Part shown: one piece after another, positions 2,056-6,827 of the stretch
Layout: the number at the start of each line of letters is the position of its first letter
How positions within the stretch are numbered: position 1 is the stretch's first letter
Source: a virus
Length of the DNA: 64,000 bases
IMG/VR virus record: IMGVR_UViG_3300027969_000058
Coordinates: 32,001 to 96,000 of that record
Strand: one strand, 5' to 3'
Translations under genes and position numbers: made by a program
Notes under the pieces: model-generated
The model's database searches: none
The model's input: only the letters and a program-made list of their open reading frames with translations
What the model was told of the DNA's origin: nothing

Positions 2056-2107
2056 ACTAATAGTTATCTTATTAACTATTCAGTACCTTATTAACTGAAT
2101 TACTGCC

Positions 2108-2133
2108 AAAAAAATAGACCCCGAAGGGTCTAT
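2108..2133 (-). terminator. Rho-independent terminator after tmRNA
   Basis: ATAGACCC-TTCG-GGGTCTAT followed by a T run on the minus strand. Confidence 0.9.
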
Positions 2134-2521
2134 GGTTGTTTATTTTACAAGGTAAGTCCTACCCCGGAGTTGCAGTTTCTTAGGCTGCTAATTCAAAACC
2201 TTCGTTATTGCTTGCGAAAACATTAACGTTGGTTTCAAAATACTCGAATGTATTTGCTGTTGCATTTACTTTGATTTGCTTGATTTAGAGTCATCGCCTA
2301 CTCAGTTGCCGTCTCTAACTATTTGCCCAATCGATTACCAGAGCAGGCCCAACTAAGTAGTCTCGCACCAACTGGTGGATATAGCGAGAATCGACCTCGC
2401 ATTTTATAGATTCGGAATCCATCTGTCCTACTTGGACGATATACCCGACACTACTTAGGTGGACCTGGCGAGATTCGAACTCGCGTCTTGAACACATCCT
2501 TTTTGAAGGGATTACAACTAT
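2134..2521 (-). ncRNA. ssrA: Circularly permuted (two-piece) tmRNA
   Basis: The acceptor piece comes first (T-arm GCGAG-TTCGAAT-CTCGC, then CAGGTCC-A-CC, ending ~2458). After an intervening segment, the coding piece starts GGGCCTG at 2350 and pairs with CAGGTCC including G3.U70. Tag frame 2263-2180 follows TAAAT-GCA and encodes ATANTFEYFETNVNVFASNNEGFELAA-stop. Confidence 0.88.
2373..2446 (-). tRNA. tRNA-Arg(CCG)-like gene nested in the tmRNA intervening segment
   Basis: Cloverleaf: acceptor GGGTATA/TATATCC + ACCA, D stem GTCC/GGAC, anticodon stem ATGGA/TCTAT with loop TTCCGAA, T stem GCGAG/CTCGC with atypical loop GTCGATT. Confidence 0.7.
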
Positions 2522-2527
2522 ACGCTT

Positions 2528-2556
2528 ATTATAGCGCATTGTATTTAGCGTGTCAA
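2528..2556 (-). promoter_or_regulatory. Consensus sigma70 promoter for tmRNA/tRNA (also contains a TAAATA box)
   Basis: TTGACA-17 nt-TATAAT exactly. Confidence 0.9.
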
Positions 2557-2557
2557 C

Positions 2558-3199
2558 TTATTGTTTTGTCAAAAGCTGGACAAAGTCTAACAGTAGTTCG
2601 TGATGTTGACCAAGATGATACTTGCCCTGCATCCAGCTATAGCCGTCATACCAAAACTGTTCGCTTTCAGGATGAGCACCTATTAAGCCTATACGGTTCT
2701 GTATAATAGCCATTGGGTCATCATTAGCATACTTGGCAATGGTGTCATAGTAGCCTGCGCCTGTAAAAGCACAACCGTCATACCAGAACATGGTCATTGG
2801 TTTGCCTAACCATTCTATCTTTATGTTCTTAGCATGTGGTCTGCGGGTATCTGTATTTGGTTGTGTAATATACTGTACTGCATCTACACCTTCTAATATA
2901 TCAAAGTAGTGTTTGCCTGCCCAATAGGCGCCCATACATATGCCAAGGTAATAGCCGCCATCAGCTATAAACTGTTTAATGCGTTCGCCACTGTATTTAA
3001 ATGCTCGATCAAAGCTACCAGCGTCGCCAAAGCCGCCAGGAACTGCTACAATGTCTACATCATCAAAAAAACCGTCTTCTAACTCGTTGATACCAAAGAT
3101 TTTAAAATTATAATGGTCCCTAAGAGCTCGGATAATACCATTGCCTGACTGTACTGAACATTTCGGATCATACAAAAACAGGGCAATAGTAGGTTTCAT
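2558..3199 (-). CDS. Class I glutamine amidotransferase-like protein (biotin-protein ligase N-terminal, BPL_N type)
   Basis: VAVPGG, GGYYLGICMGAY nucleophile elbow and HPE motif. Confidence 0.75.
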   Translation of the reverse strand: MKPTIALFLYDPKCSVQSGNGIIRALRDHYNFKIFGINELEDGFFDDVDIVAVPGGFGDAGSFDRAFKYSGERIKQFIADGGYYLGICMGAYWAGKHYFDILEGVDAVQYITQPNTDTRRPHAKNIKIEWLGKPMTMFWYDGCAFTGAGYYDTIAKYANDDPMAIIQNRIGLIGAHPESEQFWYDGYSWMQGKYHLGQHHELLLDFVQLLTKQ

Positions 3200-3200
3200 A

Positions 3201-3344
3201 CTACTTGGTTAGTAGCTTAAACAATGCAAGTTCTCTTGCATCTTCCTTTGCGCTTAACGCAACTTCTTCTGCGCTTGGTGTCCAGGCTGATACACAAGCT
3301 GATGCAAATACTGCAACGACAAATATAAATGATGTTAATTTCAT
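3201..3344 (-). CDS. Small signal-peptide-bearing protein (47 aa)
   Basis: MKLTSFIFVVAVFASACVSAWTPSAEE...; AGGAG upstream; exactly fills the intergenic gap. Confidence 0.55.
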   Translation of the reverse strand: MKLTSFIFVVAVFASACVSAWTPSAEEVALSAKEDARELALFKLLTK

Positions 3345-3345
3345 A

Positions 3346-4047
3346 TTAACTCCTTTTGAATTGTTTGATAGCAGATTTAACTAAACTATCAATGCTATTT
3401 ATTAGTGGGATATTACCCTGCTGAGATTCTCTCACTGCTAACGGTATCTCTGTACAGCCTAACACAACTGCGGTTGCTCCGCGAGTAATTAGACTATCTA
3501 CTACAGACATCAACATTGCGTGTGATTTAATCATGTCACCTGCTTTGACTAAATCTATAGCAGGCTGTACCAATGTATCCATTTCTTCTTTAGTGGGTAC
3601 TATACAATCCCAACCTTGTTTATTAAGTTTGTATTGATACAATCCTAACTCAATAGTTGCCTGTGTGCCCATTAGTCCAACTGTAGAATTTGTTACATTT
3701 ACATCTCTTAATGCATCAGCAACGCTGTCTACAATGTGTATGATAGTAACTCGAGGATTTTGTCTAACTAATTCACTATACCAAAAATGTGCGGTATTAC
3801 ATGGAATAACAATTAAGTTGCAACCTGCAGAAAATAGCCCCTTAATTCCAGCTAATAGATAAGGTAACGGCTTGTCATCTTTATTAAGTAAACTTGTGCT
3901 GCGATCTGGAACAATAGGGTCACTCCATAACACAAAAGGTATGTGGTCTTGGTCACAGGTAGCAGGAGTTTGTTGGATCAATCTAACAACATACTCGGCA
4001 CTGGCAGCAGGACCCATTCCGCCAAGTATGCCTAATCGTTTAGTCAT
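3346..4047 (-). CDS. Aspartate/glutamate racemase (PLP-independent)
   Basis: LGILGGMGPAAS, IPCNTAH and LGCTEIP catalytic Cys motifs; start reassigned to MTKRLG at 4047. Confidence 0.92.
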   Translation of the reverse strand: MTKRLGILGGMGPAASAEYVVRLIQQTPATCDQDHIPFVLWSDPIVPDRSTSLLNKDDKPLPYLLAGIKGLFSAGCNLIVIPCNTAHFWYSELVRQNPRVTIIHIVDSVADALRDVNVTNSTVGLMGTQATIELGLYQYKLNKQGWDCIVPTKEEMDTLVQPAIDLVKAGDMIKSHAMLMSVVDSLITRGATAVVLGCTEIPLAVRESQQGNIPLINSIDSLVKSAIKQFKRS

Positions 4048-4099
4048 AATACAATCAATATGATTATTAAAATACCAACGGCTATGACTGTAGGGAGTC

Positions 4100-4702
4100 T
4101 CATTTTTTGAATAACAATGATGAAGCAATGATCAGTGCTGTTTGTGCGGCTTCTACATCAGTGGGCTGTTCTTTCCACCCTACACTAATTTGTCCAATGA
4201 ATACACCAGGTTCTGCCGGCACACTAATACGACACATATAGTTAACACCATTGTCTTTGTAGGTAAACCCAATAAGACTCTGTGGTTTTGTATACGGACT
4301 ACAGGGAATTTTACCAGACATTAGGCCAATGACATCATTGTTGTTATCGTAGTTTTTACTAAACAACCCAACATCTAAGCCATTGTGGTCTTTTATCTTC
4401 CCACCATTGCGTGTGGCCAAGAACGCAATTTTTCTTGTATTTGATAGAGTGTTAACTTCCATGATAGACACAAGTTCTATGTCTGTATGTTTTATTAGAA
4501 AGTTGTATGCTTCTTCATATTTGCCATTCATCTTTGGCATGGCTTGTTGAGCACGGTAGCTGGCCATAAAGGCATCTTTTTCGCTGTAGGCTACCCATCC
4601 TAAAAAAGTGAATAGGCAAAGGAATACAACAGTGAATAGGCGAAATGGACTTTCGCCTATATAAGTCAGTAACCCAAAGAAAAAATCTTTAAGTTTGTCC
4701 AT
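4100..4702 (-). CDS. Single-TM protein with periplasmic domain, T4 gpT holin-like
   Basis: N-terminal TM followed by ~160 aa; the C-terminus (NYMCRISVP..PGVFIGQISVGW....AAQTALIIASSLL) parallels the T4 T C-terminal GAF-like domain as recalled. Confidence 0.5.
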   Translation of the reverse strand: MDKLKDFFFGLLTYIGESPFRLFTVVFLCLFTFLGWVAYSEKDAFMASYRAQQAMPKMNGKYEEAYNFLIKHTDIELVSIMEVNTLSNTRKIAFLATRNGGKIKDHNGLDVGLFSKNYDNNNDVIGLMSGKIPCSPYTKPQSLIGFTYKDNGVNYMCRISVPAEPGVFIGQISVGWKEQPTDVEAAQTALIIASSLLFKK

Positions 4703-5963
4703 CCGCAGTTACCTCTTTATCGCAGACAAATGCTGTAACTGCTACGTTGCCGTGTACGTGACTTGCTGTGCGAATCATATCCATCAATGGGTCAACTGCA
4801 ATTAACAATACCAATACTGCTTCGCTTGGTAATTTTAACAAATCACAGACAACTGCCACTGTGGCAACTGTGAGAATACCTGTTGTACCTGCTGATGCTA
4901 AACCTGCTAAGATACTGCCAAACAACACCACCAACAATCCAGTAACTCCCATAGGTGCACCGTAGATGTTGGCAATAAACACTGTGGCAATTGCGTAATA
5001 AACAATACTGCCAATGCGGTTAACTGTGAAACTTAGTGGCACAGTTAATTCTACACCAGTTCTTTCAAACTTTAACTTGTGTAGTGCTTCTTGTGCGTAT
5101 GGGATACAGGCTAAACTACTGCGTGAACTAATAGCAACAATCAGCGTTTCCTTAGTTTCTTTAATAACAGTCATTAGGCTCAGGCCCGAACGTTGCCAAA
5201 TAACAATAGTACCAGCAATGATAACCAGTAATCCACCAATGGCCTGTTGCATGATAAACTCAACCATGGTCAAGAAAATACCAACACCCACTTTACCAAC
5301 TTGGCTACTGATCATTGCTAACAGTGCAAACGGTAGAAAATAGTTTAAGAACTTAAAAATACTGATACTGGCCTGTTGAACGCTTTTCAACATGTCCACT
5401 AATATTTCCTGTCCTGTACTTTTAATGTTGCCTAAAGCAATACCAAAGATTAAACAGAAGATAACAATCTTCAAACTTTCACCAGCGGCTAATGTATTAA
5501 AGATATTTTCTGGAATAAACTTCTGTGCCATTTGCATTGGGTCAACGTGCGGTGTAACGGGCATCGGTTCTTTTAATGTAATGTTAAGATCACTTCCAGA
5601 TTCTTTGTCGTTAACAATTGAACCAAGCTGTGCTTGTTTTGCAGGAGTCATTTCGCTACCAGTCAACGCAACAGTACCAACACCAATAACTGCGGCGAGG
5701 AACATACTGCCAACAAAGCCAATGATAATTTTGCGTATCATTGCGGCACTGCCTTCTTTTTGTAGTAGACTAATAACACCAACTAAAATAGTTGCAAGTA
5801 AGAAAGGTATTACCACAACTTTAAGCAAGCTGATGTAAATTCCCCCAACACTTTCAAAGTTCATACTTTGTGCAGGTGCATACACTCCTGCCAATACTCC
5901 AAGTATGATTGACCCTAAAATAGTCCACGGACTTGATAAGAAGTTTTTTAAATTAAATTTCAT
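4689..5963 (-). CDS. Dicarboxylate/amino acid:cation symporter (DAACS, GltP-like)
   Basis: Multi-TM; IPENIF, SSRSSLACIP, PLSFTVNRIG and DPLMDMIRTASHVHGN motifs of the DAACS family. Confidence 0.9.
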   Translation of the reverse strand: MKFNLKNFLSSPWTILGSIILGVLAGVYAPAQSMNFESVGGIYISLLKVVVIPFLLATILVGVISLLQKEGSAAMIRKIIIGFVGSMFLAAVIGVGTVALTGSEMTPAKQAQLGSIVNDKESGSDLNITLKEPMPVTPHVDPMQMAQKFIPENIFNTLAAGESLKIVIFCLIFGIALGNIKSTGQEILVDMLKSVQQASISIFKFLNYFLPFALLAMISSQVGKVGVGIFLTMVEFIMQQAIGGLLVIIAGTIVIWQRSGLSLMTVIKETKETLIVAISSRSSLACIPYAQEALHKLKFERTGVELTVPLSFTVNRIGSIVYYAIATVFIANIYGAPMGVTGLLVVLFGSILAGLASAGTTGILTVATVAVVCDLLKLPSEAVLVLLIAVDPLMDMIRTASHVHGNVAVTAFVCDKEVTADGQT

Positions 5964-5975
5964 TTTGTTTCCTAA

Positions 5976-6827
5976 TTATTTCGTTACAGGAGCCGGAGTC
6001 TTTTTCTCAGCTTTGTATCGATCCATTAACTTCTTTGTGTCAATGTTACTGTATTCAGTTCTAATAACATAGTTAACTATGCTGAGTAGTTGTACTGAAT
6101 TAACATTTGCAGCCACAGCAATGTTATCAATGGAGTCGGAGATAGTCACTGTTTTGGTAGTGATTGCTGCCTCGGGCTTTTCAAATGAAATTTTCTTAAT
6201 TTCAAACTCATCTCTATAGCCAGCGGCAATTGCGCCGTTGGTTACATTATTGATAATTGTATCCCAACTATCTTCGGGAGTATATACAGCTTTGGGGAAA
6301 TTTGCACGGGCAAATGTATCATAACTTGAATTACGGACAAAAGATATCTTTCCGTTAAATGTTCTAATCACTTCATACACTTCTCGACCTTGTGAATTTT
6401 GACTCAACCAAAGACGATTAATAATCATTGCTTGTTTAAGTTTGATATAGGGATCGCTAAATCTAACAACTTGTAAACGTGGACCAGTTACAGATAATTT
6501 GCTCACAGCAAGATCTGCACGGCCGTCACGAACCTGTTCTACAACTTCGGCGAAACTCTCTGCGTCTCGTCTAAACTGTACAGGGACTCCGATAATTACA
6601 CCAATTCGGCGTGCAATTTCAACGTCAAGTCCTCGAATGTCGTCACCTTCACCACTGAAGAATGGAGGAACGTCTTTTTTAGTCATAGCAATGATTAAGA
6701 CGTTTTTCTTCTTAATTGCTGCAATGTCTGTGGGTAGTGGTACGGTTGAACCAGCCAGTTGGGCAACAGCGTGTGCTGAAGTAAGGCCGGTAACCAGTAC
6801 AAAGAGTAATGTGAGTAGTTTTTTCAT
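5976..6827 (-). CDS. Periplasmic polar amino-acid substrate-binding protein (SBP family 3)
   Basis: Signal peptide; PPF, GLDVEIA..I, GRADLAVS.LSVTGPR...VRFSDPY. Confidence 0.9.
   Translation of the reverse strand: MKKLLTLLFVLVTGLTSAHAVAQLAGSTVPLPTDIAAIKKKNVLIIAMTKKDVPPFFSGEGDDIRGLDVEIARRIGVIIGVPVQFRRDAESFAEVVEQVRDGRADLAVSKLSVTGPRLQVVRFSDPYIKLKQAMIINRLWLSQNSQGREVYEVIRTFNGKISFVRNSSYDTFARANFPKAVYTPEDSWDTIINNVTNGAIAAGYRDEFEIKKISFEKPEAAITTKTVTISDSIDNIAVAANVNSVQLLSIVNYVIRTEYSNIDTKKLMDRYKAEKKTPAPVTK

What the first reader, a model, noticed from the sequence alone, without database searches (positions are those of the whole stretch)
2344..2490. A complete tRNA nested in the intervening segment of a permuted tmRNA
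Seen: between the tmRNA 3' acceptor strand (ends ~2458) and 5' acceptor strand (starts 2350) lies a 74-nt cloverleaf ending in CCA (2446-2373). It is flanked by a perfect 9-bp inverted repeat (CTAAGTAGT at 2458-2450 / ACTACTTAG at 2361-2353) that extends the tmRNA acceptor helix. Known: in two-piece tmRNAs this segment is a short spacer removed by RNase P and 3' processing. Inference: one precursor gives two tmRNA pieces plus a tRNA, and tRNA processing may open the loop. I do not know of this arrangement being described.
Basis: partly seen in the sequence, partly recalled or inferred. Interest (0 to 1): 0.85.

Follow-up and report, generated by a model that had tools for sequence, protein, structure and literature searches.

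The report
tRNA nested in phage tmRNA spacer
A large lake phage has a real, conserved CGG-reading tRNA gene inside the normally discarded spacer of its two-piece ribosome-rescue RNA (tmRNA) gene. Related phages fill the same spacer with other inserts, so it is an exchangeable cargo slot, not a new way of making tmRNA.

Summary
ARAGORN and Rfam find a permuted, beta-type tmRNA gene on the minus strand (2107-2521). A 74-nt tRNA(CCG) lies at 2373-2446 inside its 107-nt intervening segment (tRNA model 45.5 bits, cut-off 29). A 12/12 sigma-70 promoter and one terminator bracket the whole unit.

The window is part of a jumbo-phage record from lake metagenomes. I found 13 distinct nested variants in viral and metagenome contigs. 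The cloverleaf covaries: 9 of 21 pairs carry compensatory changes and the anticodon loop is invariant.

On a tmRNA tree with the spacer removed, the nested tRNA needs at least 3-4 gains or losses. Close relatives have plain hairpins or tiny Shine-Dalgarno ORFs in the spacer. One lineage keeps the same tRNA free-standing in its tRNA array.

One oddity remains. The tRNA has the alanine acceptor set (G1-C72, G2-C71, G3.U70, A73) and lacks A20. Yet CGG codons in these phages align with Arg or Lys, never Ala (0 of 104).

One published sentence reports a tRNA-Ala in a permuted tmRNA spacer. This scan has also noted nested tRNAs and spacer genes in other phages' tmRNAs. Verdict: a real new variant of a known kind, of moderate interest.

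The parts
2528..2556 (-). sigma-70-type promoter, TTGACA-17-TATAAT
   Evidence: 12 of 12 consensus matches. TATAAT is kept in the related genes seen.
2458..2521 (-). tmRNA acceptor piece: P2 strand, T-arm, 3' acceptor strand CAGGUCC, A73 and CC. The terminal A is not encoded.
   Evidence: Rfam alignment starts at 2519. ARAGORN puts the 3' tRNA domain at 2495-2458. The 5' end is inferred from the promoter.
2351..2457 (-). intervening segment (IVS), 107 nt, absent from mature tmRNA
   Evidence: It lies between the two tRNA-like domain halves.
2447..2458 (-). 5' arm of the closing helix that extends the tmRNA acceptor stem
   Evidence: The helix covaries among the 13 variants.
2373..2446 (-). nested tRNA, anticodon CCG, encoded CCA, G3.U70 and A73, D-loop AAGUA, T-loop GUCGAUU
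   Evidence: ARAGORN; RF00005 45.5 bits; covariation in 14 homologues.
2366..2378 (-). small hairpin CACC-AGUU-GGUG that pairs the tRNA 3' end (C72-C75) with its trailer
   Evidence: Predicted in the minimum-energy fold of 12 of 13 variants; L087 can form an equivalent UCCAC/GUGGA pairing. Loops vary and the complement is kept. Function unexplained.
2353..2365 (-). 3' arm of the closing helix
2107..2350 (-). tmRNA coding piece: 5' acceptor strand GGGCCUG from 2350, pseudoknot region, tag frame, 3' structures
   Evidence: ARAGORN puts the 5' tRNA domain at 2350-2323; Rfam. A 194-nt metatranscriptome contig is 100% identical to 2139-2332.
2180..2263 (-). tag reading frame, ATANTFEYFETNVNVFASNNEGFELAA plus TAA
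   Evidence: ARAGORN tag at gene positions 287-370.
2107..2133 (-). intrinsic terminator: 8-bp stem, 4-nt loop, T7

Best explanation
This is a three-in-one stable-RNA gene of a freshwater jumbo phage. One host-type promoter drives a roughly 415-nt precursor made of tmRNA acceptor piece, spacer and tmRNA coding piece. The spacer is closed by a helix that continues the tmRNA acceptor stem, and it carries a complete tRNA as cargo. Inferred steps: host RNase P cuts 5' of G2446 (tRNA) and 5' of G2350 (coding piece). Host 3' exonucleases trim the tRNA trailer back to its encoded CCA and trim the 11-nt trailer of the acceptor piece back to CC. Host CCA-adding enzyme then supplies the missing A. The products are a two-piece tmRNA and a tRNA that reads CGG, the phage's rarest Arg codon. 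Codon evidence says this tRNA most likely inserts Arg, but its acceptor stem has alanine identity, so the amino acid remains untested. The tRNA is optional cargo: the spacer of this phage tmRNA family is an exchangeable slot that gives any insert transcription and processing for free.
For: Shown by sequence.
- tmRNA and tRNA are each detected by two methods.
- There is a single 12/12 promoter and a single terminator.
- The arrangement recurs in 13 distinct variants from viral and metagenome contigs. They span two tmRNA acceptor types (GGGCCUG and GGGGGUG) and have both long and short tags.
- In 14 homologues the cloverleaf is 97.6% paired and 9 of 21 pairs carry compensatory changes. No shuffle of 500 reaches this, and slid controls give 34-52% paired.
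- U33-CCG-A37 is invariant while the anticodon stem changes (ATGGA/TCTAT, GCAAA/TTTGT, ATAAA/TTTAT, ATGGG/CCTAT), which argues that the anticodon is used.
- The same tRNA stands free in the tRNA array of another lineage (L079:3905-3978, 60.8 bits).
- The closing helix covaries.
- It is the only CCG tRNA among the 33 tRNAs of the record.
- Residues aligned to CGG codons are R 0.68, K 0.12, A 0.00 (n = 104), the same profile as CGA and AGG.
- A lake metatranscriptome holds a 194-nt contig identical to 2139-2332, inside the coding piece. It has no matching contig on the gene at 1030-2055 and only a 38-nt, 3-mismatch piece (3137-3174) on the gene at 2558-3199.
- No phage SmpB or CCA-adding enzyme is found, so host factors are implied.
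Cargo-slot reading: on a tree of the tmRNA without the spacer the trait needs 4 changes, at least 3 of them forced. tRNA types I and II are incongruent with that tree.
Against: - No RNA ends are mapped. The transcriptome evidence is a single contig, which cannot show processing and does not cover the tRNA.
- The tRNA elbow is non-canonical: the D-loop has no G18G19 and T-loop positions 54-56 vary (GUC, UGC, UCU, UUU). ARAGORN misses the L025 copy and the free-standing L079 copy.
- The leader of the nested tRNA is base-paired up to position -1, and its CCA can be sequestered in a hairpin. Both are unfavourable for RNase P by textbook rules.
- By the bacterial identity rules (PMC9976931), G3.U70, A73 and G2-C71 predict alanylation, and the main Arg determinant A20 is absent from the window's form.
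- CGG is used only 1.2 times per 1000 codons, and a tRNA-Arg(UCG) is also encoded, so demand for this tRNA is small.
Confidence: 0.7

Rival explanations
1. The nested RNA is an alanine-accepting CGG decoder. AlaRS charges it through G3.U70, and it inserts Ala at Arg CGG codons. This would be deliberate mistranslation that hits a CGG-richer host proteome harder than the CGG-poor phage, or a dual Arg/Ala tRNA.
For: G1-C72, G2-C71, G3.U70 and A73 are invariant in 14 of 14 homologues, while the neighbouring 4-69 pair switches among UA, AU and GC. Among 184 unique tRNAs of these loci, this full set occurs only in tRNA-Ala and this tRNA. The phage's three canonical tRNA-Arg have the AAUGGAUA-type D-loop with A20; the window's tRNA has AAGUA. 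The rules are in PMC9976931 Table 1. CGG is the rarest Arg codon in the phage, at 1.2 per 1000.
Against: CGG codons in phages that carry the tRNA sit at conserved Arg positions. For example, they align with CGT in 6-9 homologues at 83-91% identity, and none of 104 aligned pairs is Ala. Ala insertion would therefore damage phage proteins too. The L023 and L079 forms have a D-loop (AAUGAYA) that looks like the Arg type minus one G, so they may keep A20. C35 and G36 are present. The host and its synthetases are unknown.
Confidence: 0.2
2. The cloverleaf is only a processing handle (tRNA punctuation). It recruits RNase P to make the 3' end of the acceptor piece and is then degraded; it never decodes.
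For: The elbow is non-canonical (no G18G19, variable positions 54-56). All 13 nested genes end the acceptor piece with CC|U rather than the encoded CCA of spacers without a tRNA, so maturation differs when the tRNA is present.
Against: The anticodon loop is invariant over covarying stems. CCA is encoded. A free-standing homologue sits in a tRNA array far from any tmRNA end. Close relatives mature their tmRNA without any tRNA.
Confidence: 0.07
3. The tRNA is a decaying hitch-hiker or a chance cloverleaf with no function.
For: The tRNA scores are modest (45-49 bits nested against 61 free-standing). L023 has two mismatches in its anticodon stem.
Against: 9 of 21 pairs carry compensatory changes, 97.6% of cells are paired, and the anticodon and acceptor end are invariant across 13 nested variants in two tmRNA clades.
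Confidence: 0.03

Closest known systems
Permuted tmRNA with an intact tRNA-Ala gene in its intervening sequence (GCA-2688965 sp002688965.2; PMC11915505, 2025)
   Same: A complete, high-scoring tRNA gene lies between the acceptor piece and the coding piece of a circularly permuted tmRNA gene.
   Different: That is a single case, called 'unique' among 97,179 tmRNA sequences, from a nominally archaeal MAG, with a tRNA-Ala. Here there is a family of at least 13 variants in lake phages, the anticodon is CCG, and there is evidence of cassette exchange.
Two-piece (permuted) tmRNA of Betaproteobacteria, Rfam RF01850 / RF04321 (Sharkady and Williams 2004; Keiler et al. 2000)
   Same: Same gene order (acceptor piece, spacer, coding piece), a G3.U70 acceptor, a tag ending in LAA, and scores above both curated cut-offs.
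   Different: It is phage-encoded, the tag is long (27 aa), and the spacer is 107 nt against about 23 in the model and holds a tRNA.
Phage-encoded two-piece tmRNAs, e.g. OM43 phage Melnitz (PMC9004378)
   Same: Aquatic phages carry permuted ssrA next to tRNA genes. That paper counted 53 two-piece phage tmRNAs by ARAGORN.
   Different: No nested tRNA is reported there. The Melnitz gene is of alphaproteobacterial type and carries a glutamine riboswitch.
Spacer tRNAs of bacterial rRNA operons (tRNA-Ile/Ala between 16S and 23S); from textbook knowledge
   Same: tRNAs ride in the discarded spacer of a stable-RNA precursor whose ends form a long processing helix, and RNase P releases them.
   Different: The host RNA is different, and here the tRNA sits inside a helix that continues a tRNA-like acceptor stem. 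A role for RNase III is not tested here.

Membership tests
Permuted (two-piece) tmRNA, RF04321 / RF01850 | Covariance-model score above the curated cut-off | tested here: met
   96.4 bits against 47, and 96.3 bits against 84.
Permuted (two-piece) tmRNA, RF04321 / RF01850 | Permuted order: T-arm and 3' acceptor strand lie upstream of the 5' acceptor strand, with a G3.U70 acceptor stem and A73 | tested here: met
   GGGCCUG (from 2350) pairs with CAGGUCC (2467-2461), and A2460 is the discriminator.
Permuted (two-piece) tmRNA, RF04321 / RF01850 | Tag reading frame that starts at a resume codon and ends in a hydrophobic Ala-Ala terminus plus a stop | tested here: met
   GCA at 2263 through ...FELAA and TAA at 2182-2180.
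Permuted (two-piece) tmRNA, RF04321 / RF01850 | Precursor is cleaved into two base-paired RNAs that act with SmpB | not testable with these tools
   The only RNA evidence is one contig inside the coding piece. No phage SmpB was found.
tRNA (RF00005) | Cloverleaf scoring above the cut-off, a 7-nt anticodon loop with U33, and a 3' CCA | tested here: met
   45.5 bits against 29; loop UUCCGAA; CCA at 2375-2373.
tRNA (RF00005) | Stems maintained by compensatory change in homologues | tested here: met
   9 of 21 pairs, 0 of 500 shuffles.
tRNA (RF00005) | Canonical elbow nucleotides G18 G19 and T54-Psi55-C56 | tested here: not met
   The D-loop is AAGUA. T-loop positions 54-56 are GUC here and UGC, UCU or UUU in homologues.
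Bacterial tRNA-Arg identity (PMC9976931) | C35, G/U36 and A/G73 | tested here: met
   Anticodon CCG and A73.
Bacterial tRNA-Arg identity (PMC9976931) | A20 in the D-loop (the major determinant) | tested here: not met
   The window's D-loop AAGUA has no A20 by standard numbering. The phage's other three tRNA-Arg have AAUGGA(U/A)A. The L023 and L079 forms (AAUGAYA) may keep it.
Bacterial tRNA-Arg identity (PMC9976931) | The codon it reads means Arg in the genome | tested here: met
   CGG aligns with R 68%, K 12% and A 0%.
Bacterial tRNA-Ala identity (PMC9976931) | G3.U70, A73 and G2-C71 | tested here: met
   Invariant in 14 of 14.
Bacterial tRNA-Ala identity (PMC9976931) | G4-C69, G20 and an Ala anticodon (NGC) | tested here: not met
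   The 4-69 pair is U-A here (G-C only in the free-standing L079 form), there is no G20, and the anticodon is CCG.

The most novel reading that the evidence does not exclude
The nested RNA is a natural tRNA of hybrid identity: host AlaRS charges it through G3.U70 and it reads the Arg codon CGG. Co-produced one-to-one with the alanine-charged tmRNA, it would let a CGG-poor phage mistranslate a CGG-richer host proteome, or feed Ala into some non-ribosomal reaction. This would be a first case of a phage-encoded sense-codon mistranslator.
Probability: 0.15. Interest if true: 0.9.

Novelty: new variant of a known kind. Interest (0 to 1): 0.55.

Why it matters
The spacer of two-piece tmRNA genes has been treated as throw-away sequence. 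Here it is a conserved expression slot in lake jumbo phages. It holds a selected tRNA in some genomes, tiny membrane-peptide ORFs in others and plain hairpins in the rest, and it is exchanged between tmRNA genes whose flanks are nearly identical. That has three consequences.
- It gives a natural system for studying how RNase P and 3' trimming handle two stacked tRNA-like substrates in one helix.
- It warns annotators that a tRNA call overlapping a tmRNA call need not be a false positive.
- It yields a tRNA with an Arg anticodon and a textbook alanine acceptor stem, whose charging can be tested directly.

Tried and rejected
- blastn of the locus against 50,697 GenBank phage records found no match.
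- The search for related loci with the downstream 341-aa ORF found no relatives.
- I tested CGG-to-Ala recoding through PDB alignments of the phage ALA synthase and ketoacyl synthase. The CGG sites fall at non-conserved positions, so the test was uninformative. I replaced it with the codon-substitution test.
- The junction pattern in 185,579 species' genomes gave one hit, and it is a chance match with no tmRNA or tRNA there.
- I looked for Fem-type aminoacyl-tRNA transferases (PF02388, PF13480) as a possible non-ribosomal use. None is present in G000, G001, G002, G003 or G005.
- No phage SmpB or CCA-adding enzyme was found. The records are fragments except G001.
- The supplement of PMC11915505 does not hold the published tRNA-Ala case as text, so I could not compare the sequences.
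- The RNA run X20 gives no cover over the tRNA or the acceptor piece, apart from a 33-nt piece with mismatches. Contigs cannot show absence.
- A literature search for G3.U70 with phage and mistranslation found nothing.

Full report
WHAT IS THERE. On the minus strand, ARAGORN finds a permuted tmRNA (c[2089,2549]) and, inside it, tRNA-Arg(CCG) at c[2373,2446]. Rfam agrees: tmRNA_permuted scores 96.4 bits and beta_tmRNA 96.3 bits, both above their cut-offs, and the intervening stretch is 101 nt where the model expects 23. Searched alone, the inner stretch scores 45.5 bits on the tRNA model (cut-off 29). In the whole-window search this hit was hidden because tRNA and tmRNA belong to one Rfam clan.

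A perfect TTGACA-17-TATAAT promoter lies at 2556-2528 and an intrinsic terminator at 2133-2114. Nothing comparable lies between them. It is part of a 22-nt pair of arms (2344-2365 and 2446-2467, 86% complementary) that continues the tmRNA acceptor stem.

CONTEXT. The window is bases 32001-96000 of a 114,735-base IMG/VR virus record that CheckV rates 33% complete. A complete relative, G001, has 383,411 bases, so this is a jumbo phage. The record holds 32 more tRNA genes at 17.1-30.4 kb, all on the same strand. They include Arg UCG, UCU and ACG, so the nested gene is the only CCG tRNA. DNA runs holding the locus at high share are freshwater or lake metagenomes. Neither SmpB nor a CCA-adding enzyme is encoded in G000 or in the complete G001, so maturation and function must use host factors.

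IS THE tRNA REAL? Pattern scans of IMG/VR and JGI metagenomes found 13 distinct nested variants. They also found one free-standing homologue in the tRNA array of another phage lineage (L079:3905-3978, 60.8 bits). On the 14-sequence alignment A2, the cloverleaf is 97.6% paired and 9 of 21 pairs show compensatory changes. No shuffle of 500 reaches this, and slid controls give 34-52% paired. U33, the anticodon CCG and A37 never change, although the stem beneath them changes on both sides in several lineages. This is the signature of a decoding tRNA, not of a mere processing handle.

The RNA is not canonical, though. The D-loop is AAGUA, without G18G19. T-loop positions 54-56 vary (GUC, UGC, UCU, UUU). 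ARAGORN misses some copies.

THE SPACER IS A CARGO SLOT. About 45 phage loci carry permuted tmRNA genes with the same T-arm and acceptor end. Their spacers run from 52 to 183 nt and appear, by inspection, to be closed by an inverted repeat that extends the acceptor helix. I built a maximum-likelihood tree of 33 unique genes with the spacer removed.
- The nested tRNA occurs in two separated clades. In the long-tag clade (100/100 support), the window, L023, L025 and L013 have it, while L064, L052, L026, L012, L047 and L056 do not. The other clade is L075 plus L088 (98/92).
- The trait needs 4 changes on the tree, and well-supported branches force at least 3.
- Within the tight clade of the window, L023, L025 and L064, the spacers hold a type I tRNA (D-loop AAGUA), a type II tRNA (D-loop AAUGACA, 4-69 A-U) or no tRNA at all.
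- The distant L075 record (35% GC) shares with this phage, at nucleotide level, only the 126 nt around the tRNA.

This is best explained by replacement of the spacer through recombination in the near-invariant flanks. Two lake DNA runs (X1, X2) add support: they hold contigs that match the flanks up to 2351 and 2458 and then diverge or skip across the spacer.

All tRNA-bearing spacers share their borders. The acceptor piece ends CC|U instead of the encoded CCA of the other spacers, and the spacer ends UUAGUU or UUAGGU before G1. So they look like one cassette type. In all 13, a short complement of the tRNA 3' end follows the CCA (CACC-loop-GGUG, or UCCAC/GUGGA in L087), and the minimum-energy fold shows it as a hairpin in 12 of them. 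I have no explanation for this hairpin.

HOW IT MOST LIKELY WORKS. Shown: there is one promoter and one terminator, and the folded precursor has a continuous helix (tmRNA acceptor stem, A73-U, one mismatch, then 9-12 further pairs). From that helix the cloverleaf and the small hairpin branch.

Inferred from the established maturation of two-piece tmRNA and of tRNA:
- RNase P cuts 5' of G2350 and 5' of G2446.
- Exonucleases trim the 22-nt tRNA trailer back to CCA and the 11-nt trailer of the acceptor piece back to CC.
- CCA-adding enzyme adds the A.

The tRNA is not required to open the loop, since relatives lack it. It does move an RNase P cut to within 11 nt of the acceptor piece's end. RNase III cleavage of the roughly 20-bp helix is an untested alternative first step.

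The only expression evidence is a 194-nt contig in a lake metatranscriptome. It is identical to 2139-2332, inside the coding piece. The run has no matching contig on the gene at 1030-2055 and only a 38-nt, 3-mismatch piece on the gene at 2558-3199. This is a weak hint that the tmRNA accumulates, and it says nothing about the tRNA.

WHICH AMINO ACID? The acceptor stem is G1-C72, G2-C71, G3.U70 with A73, in all 14 homologues. This is the bacterial alanine identity set. The main arginine determinant, A20, is missing from the window's form, although the phage's three other tRNA-Arg have it. Among 184 unique tRNAs in the collected loci, the full alanine set occurs only in tRNA-Ala and in this tRNA.

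I tested whether CGG is recoded. CGG is the rarest Arg codon, with 41 in 33,784 codons. In protein alignments between related phage records, residues opposite CGG are Arg 68%, Lys 12% and Ala 0% (0 of 104 pairs). CGA gives 71/14/2 and AGG gives 70/13/0. Several CGG sites align with CGT in six to nine homologues. So CGG means arginine to these genomes.

Either the tRNA is charged with Arg despite G3.U70, or it mistranslates at a low cost to a CGG-poor phage. Only a charging assay can tell. No Fem-type transferase that might use it outside the ribosome is encoded.

COMPARISON AND NOVELTY. Two-piece tmRNAs are well known, and phage copies have been reported (PMC9004378). A tRNA inside the spacer has been published once, in a single sentence, as a 'unique feature' (a tRNA-Ala in a nominally archaeal MAG; PMC11915505).

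Earlier notes of this scan (AI notes, which I did not check) report nested tRNA-Tyr, Asn, Asp and Trp and small protein genes in the spacers of other phages' tmRNAs. They also hold a separate note on this tRNA's G3.U70. My results agree with them independently for this family.

The locus is therefore a new variant of a known kind. It is a recurrent, selected tRNA(CCG) cassette in beta-type phage tmRNA genes, with evidence of cassette exchange and an unusual hybrid identity.

Noticed in passing
L026, L065, L012, L047, L021, L058 (spacers of related phage tmRNA genes): Instead of a tRNA, these spacers hold a Shine-Dalgarno sequence right after the tmRNA CCA and a tiny ORF that fills the whole spacer. 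The ORF stops at the conserved TGA just before G1 of the coding piece. Some are 24-25-aa hydrophobic peptides (e.g. MDDDLARFAMGIVAVIIVGALILF) and some are 49-56 aa. L012 and L047 differ by about five synonymous and four conservative changes.
   Followed up: partly
L073, L079, L081, L082, L085: In this lineage a tRNA-Trp ends about 40 nt upstream of the tmRNA acceptor piece, and ARAGORN's calls overlap. The tmRNA therefore looks co-transcribed with the tRNA array. The CCG tRNA homologue stands free 2.6 kb upstream, and ARAGORN does not call it.
   Followed up: partly
window 2366-2378, and the same place in all 13 nested variants: The tRNA trailer always begins with a complement of the tRNA's own 3' end (CACC-loop-GGUG). 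This can sequester C72-C75 and competes with the G1-C72 pair. Its purpose is unknown.
   Followed up: partly
G000:C1:101800-114500 (beyond the window's end): 16 of the record's 41 CGG codons lie in this 13-kb block of small genes on the far side of the strand switch. That is roughly five times the density elsewhere.
   Followed up: no
window 2558-6827: Directly upstream of the tmRNA are host-like metabolic genes: a BPL_N/GATase-like protein, a glutamate racemase (PF01177), a sodium:dicarboxylate symporter (PF00375) and a family-3 solute-binding protein. Elsewhere in the record are an ALA synthase, a ketoacyl synthase, a tryptophan-halogenase-like protein and an S11 D-Ala-D-Ala carboxypeptidase.
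   Followed up: no
L098 (G001:C1:375621-375905) and L041: The spacer of the complete 383-kb relative is 62 nt and consists of two tandem copies of an 18-19-nt unit (UAAAUUUACUUUGGUAUU). It has no tRNA.
   Followed up: no
G002:C1:13687-14026 (L025): ARAGORN misses both the tmRNA and the nested tRNA here, although Infernal scores the tmRNA at 99 bits. ARAGORN-only surveys will undercount this arrangement.
   Followed up: yes
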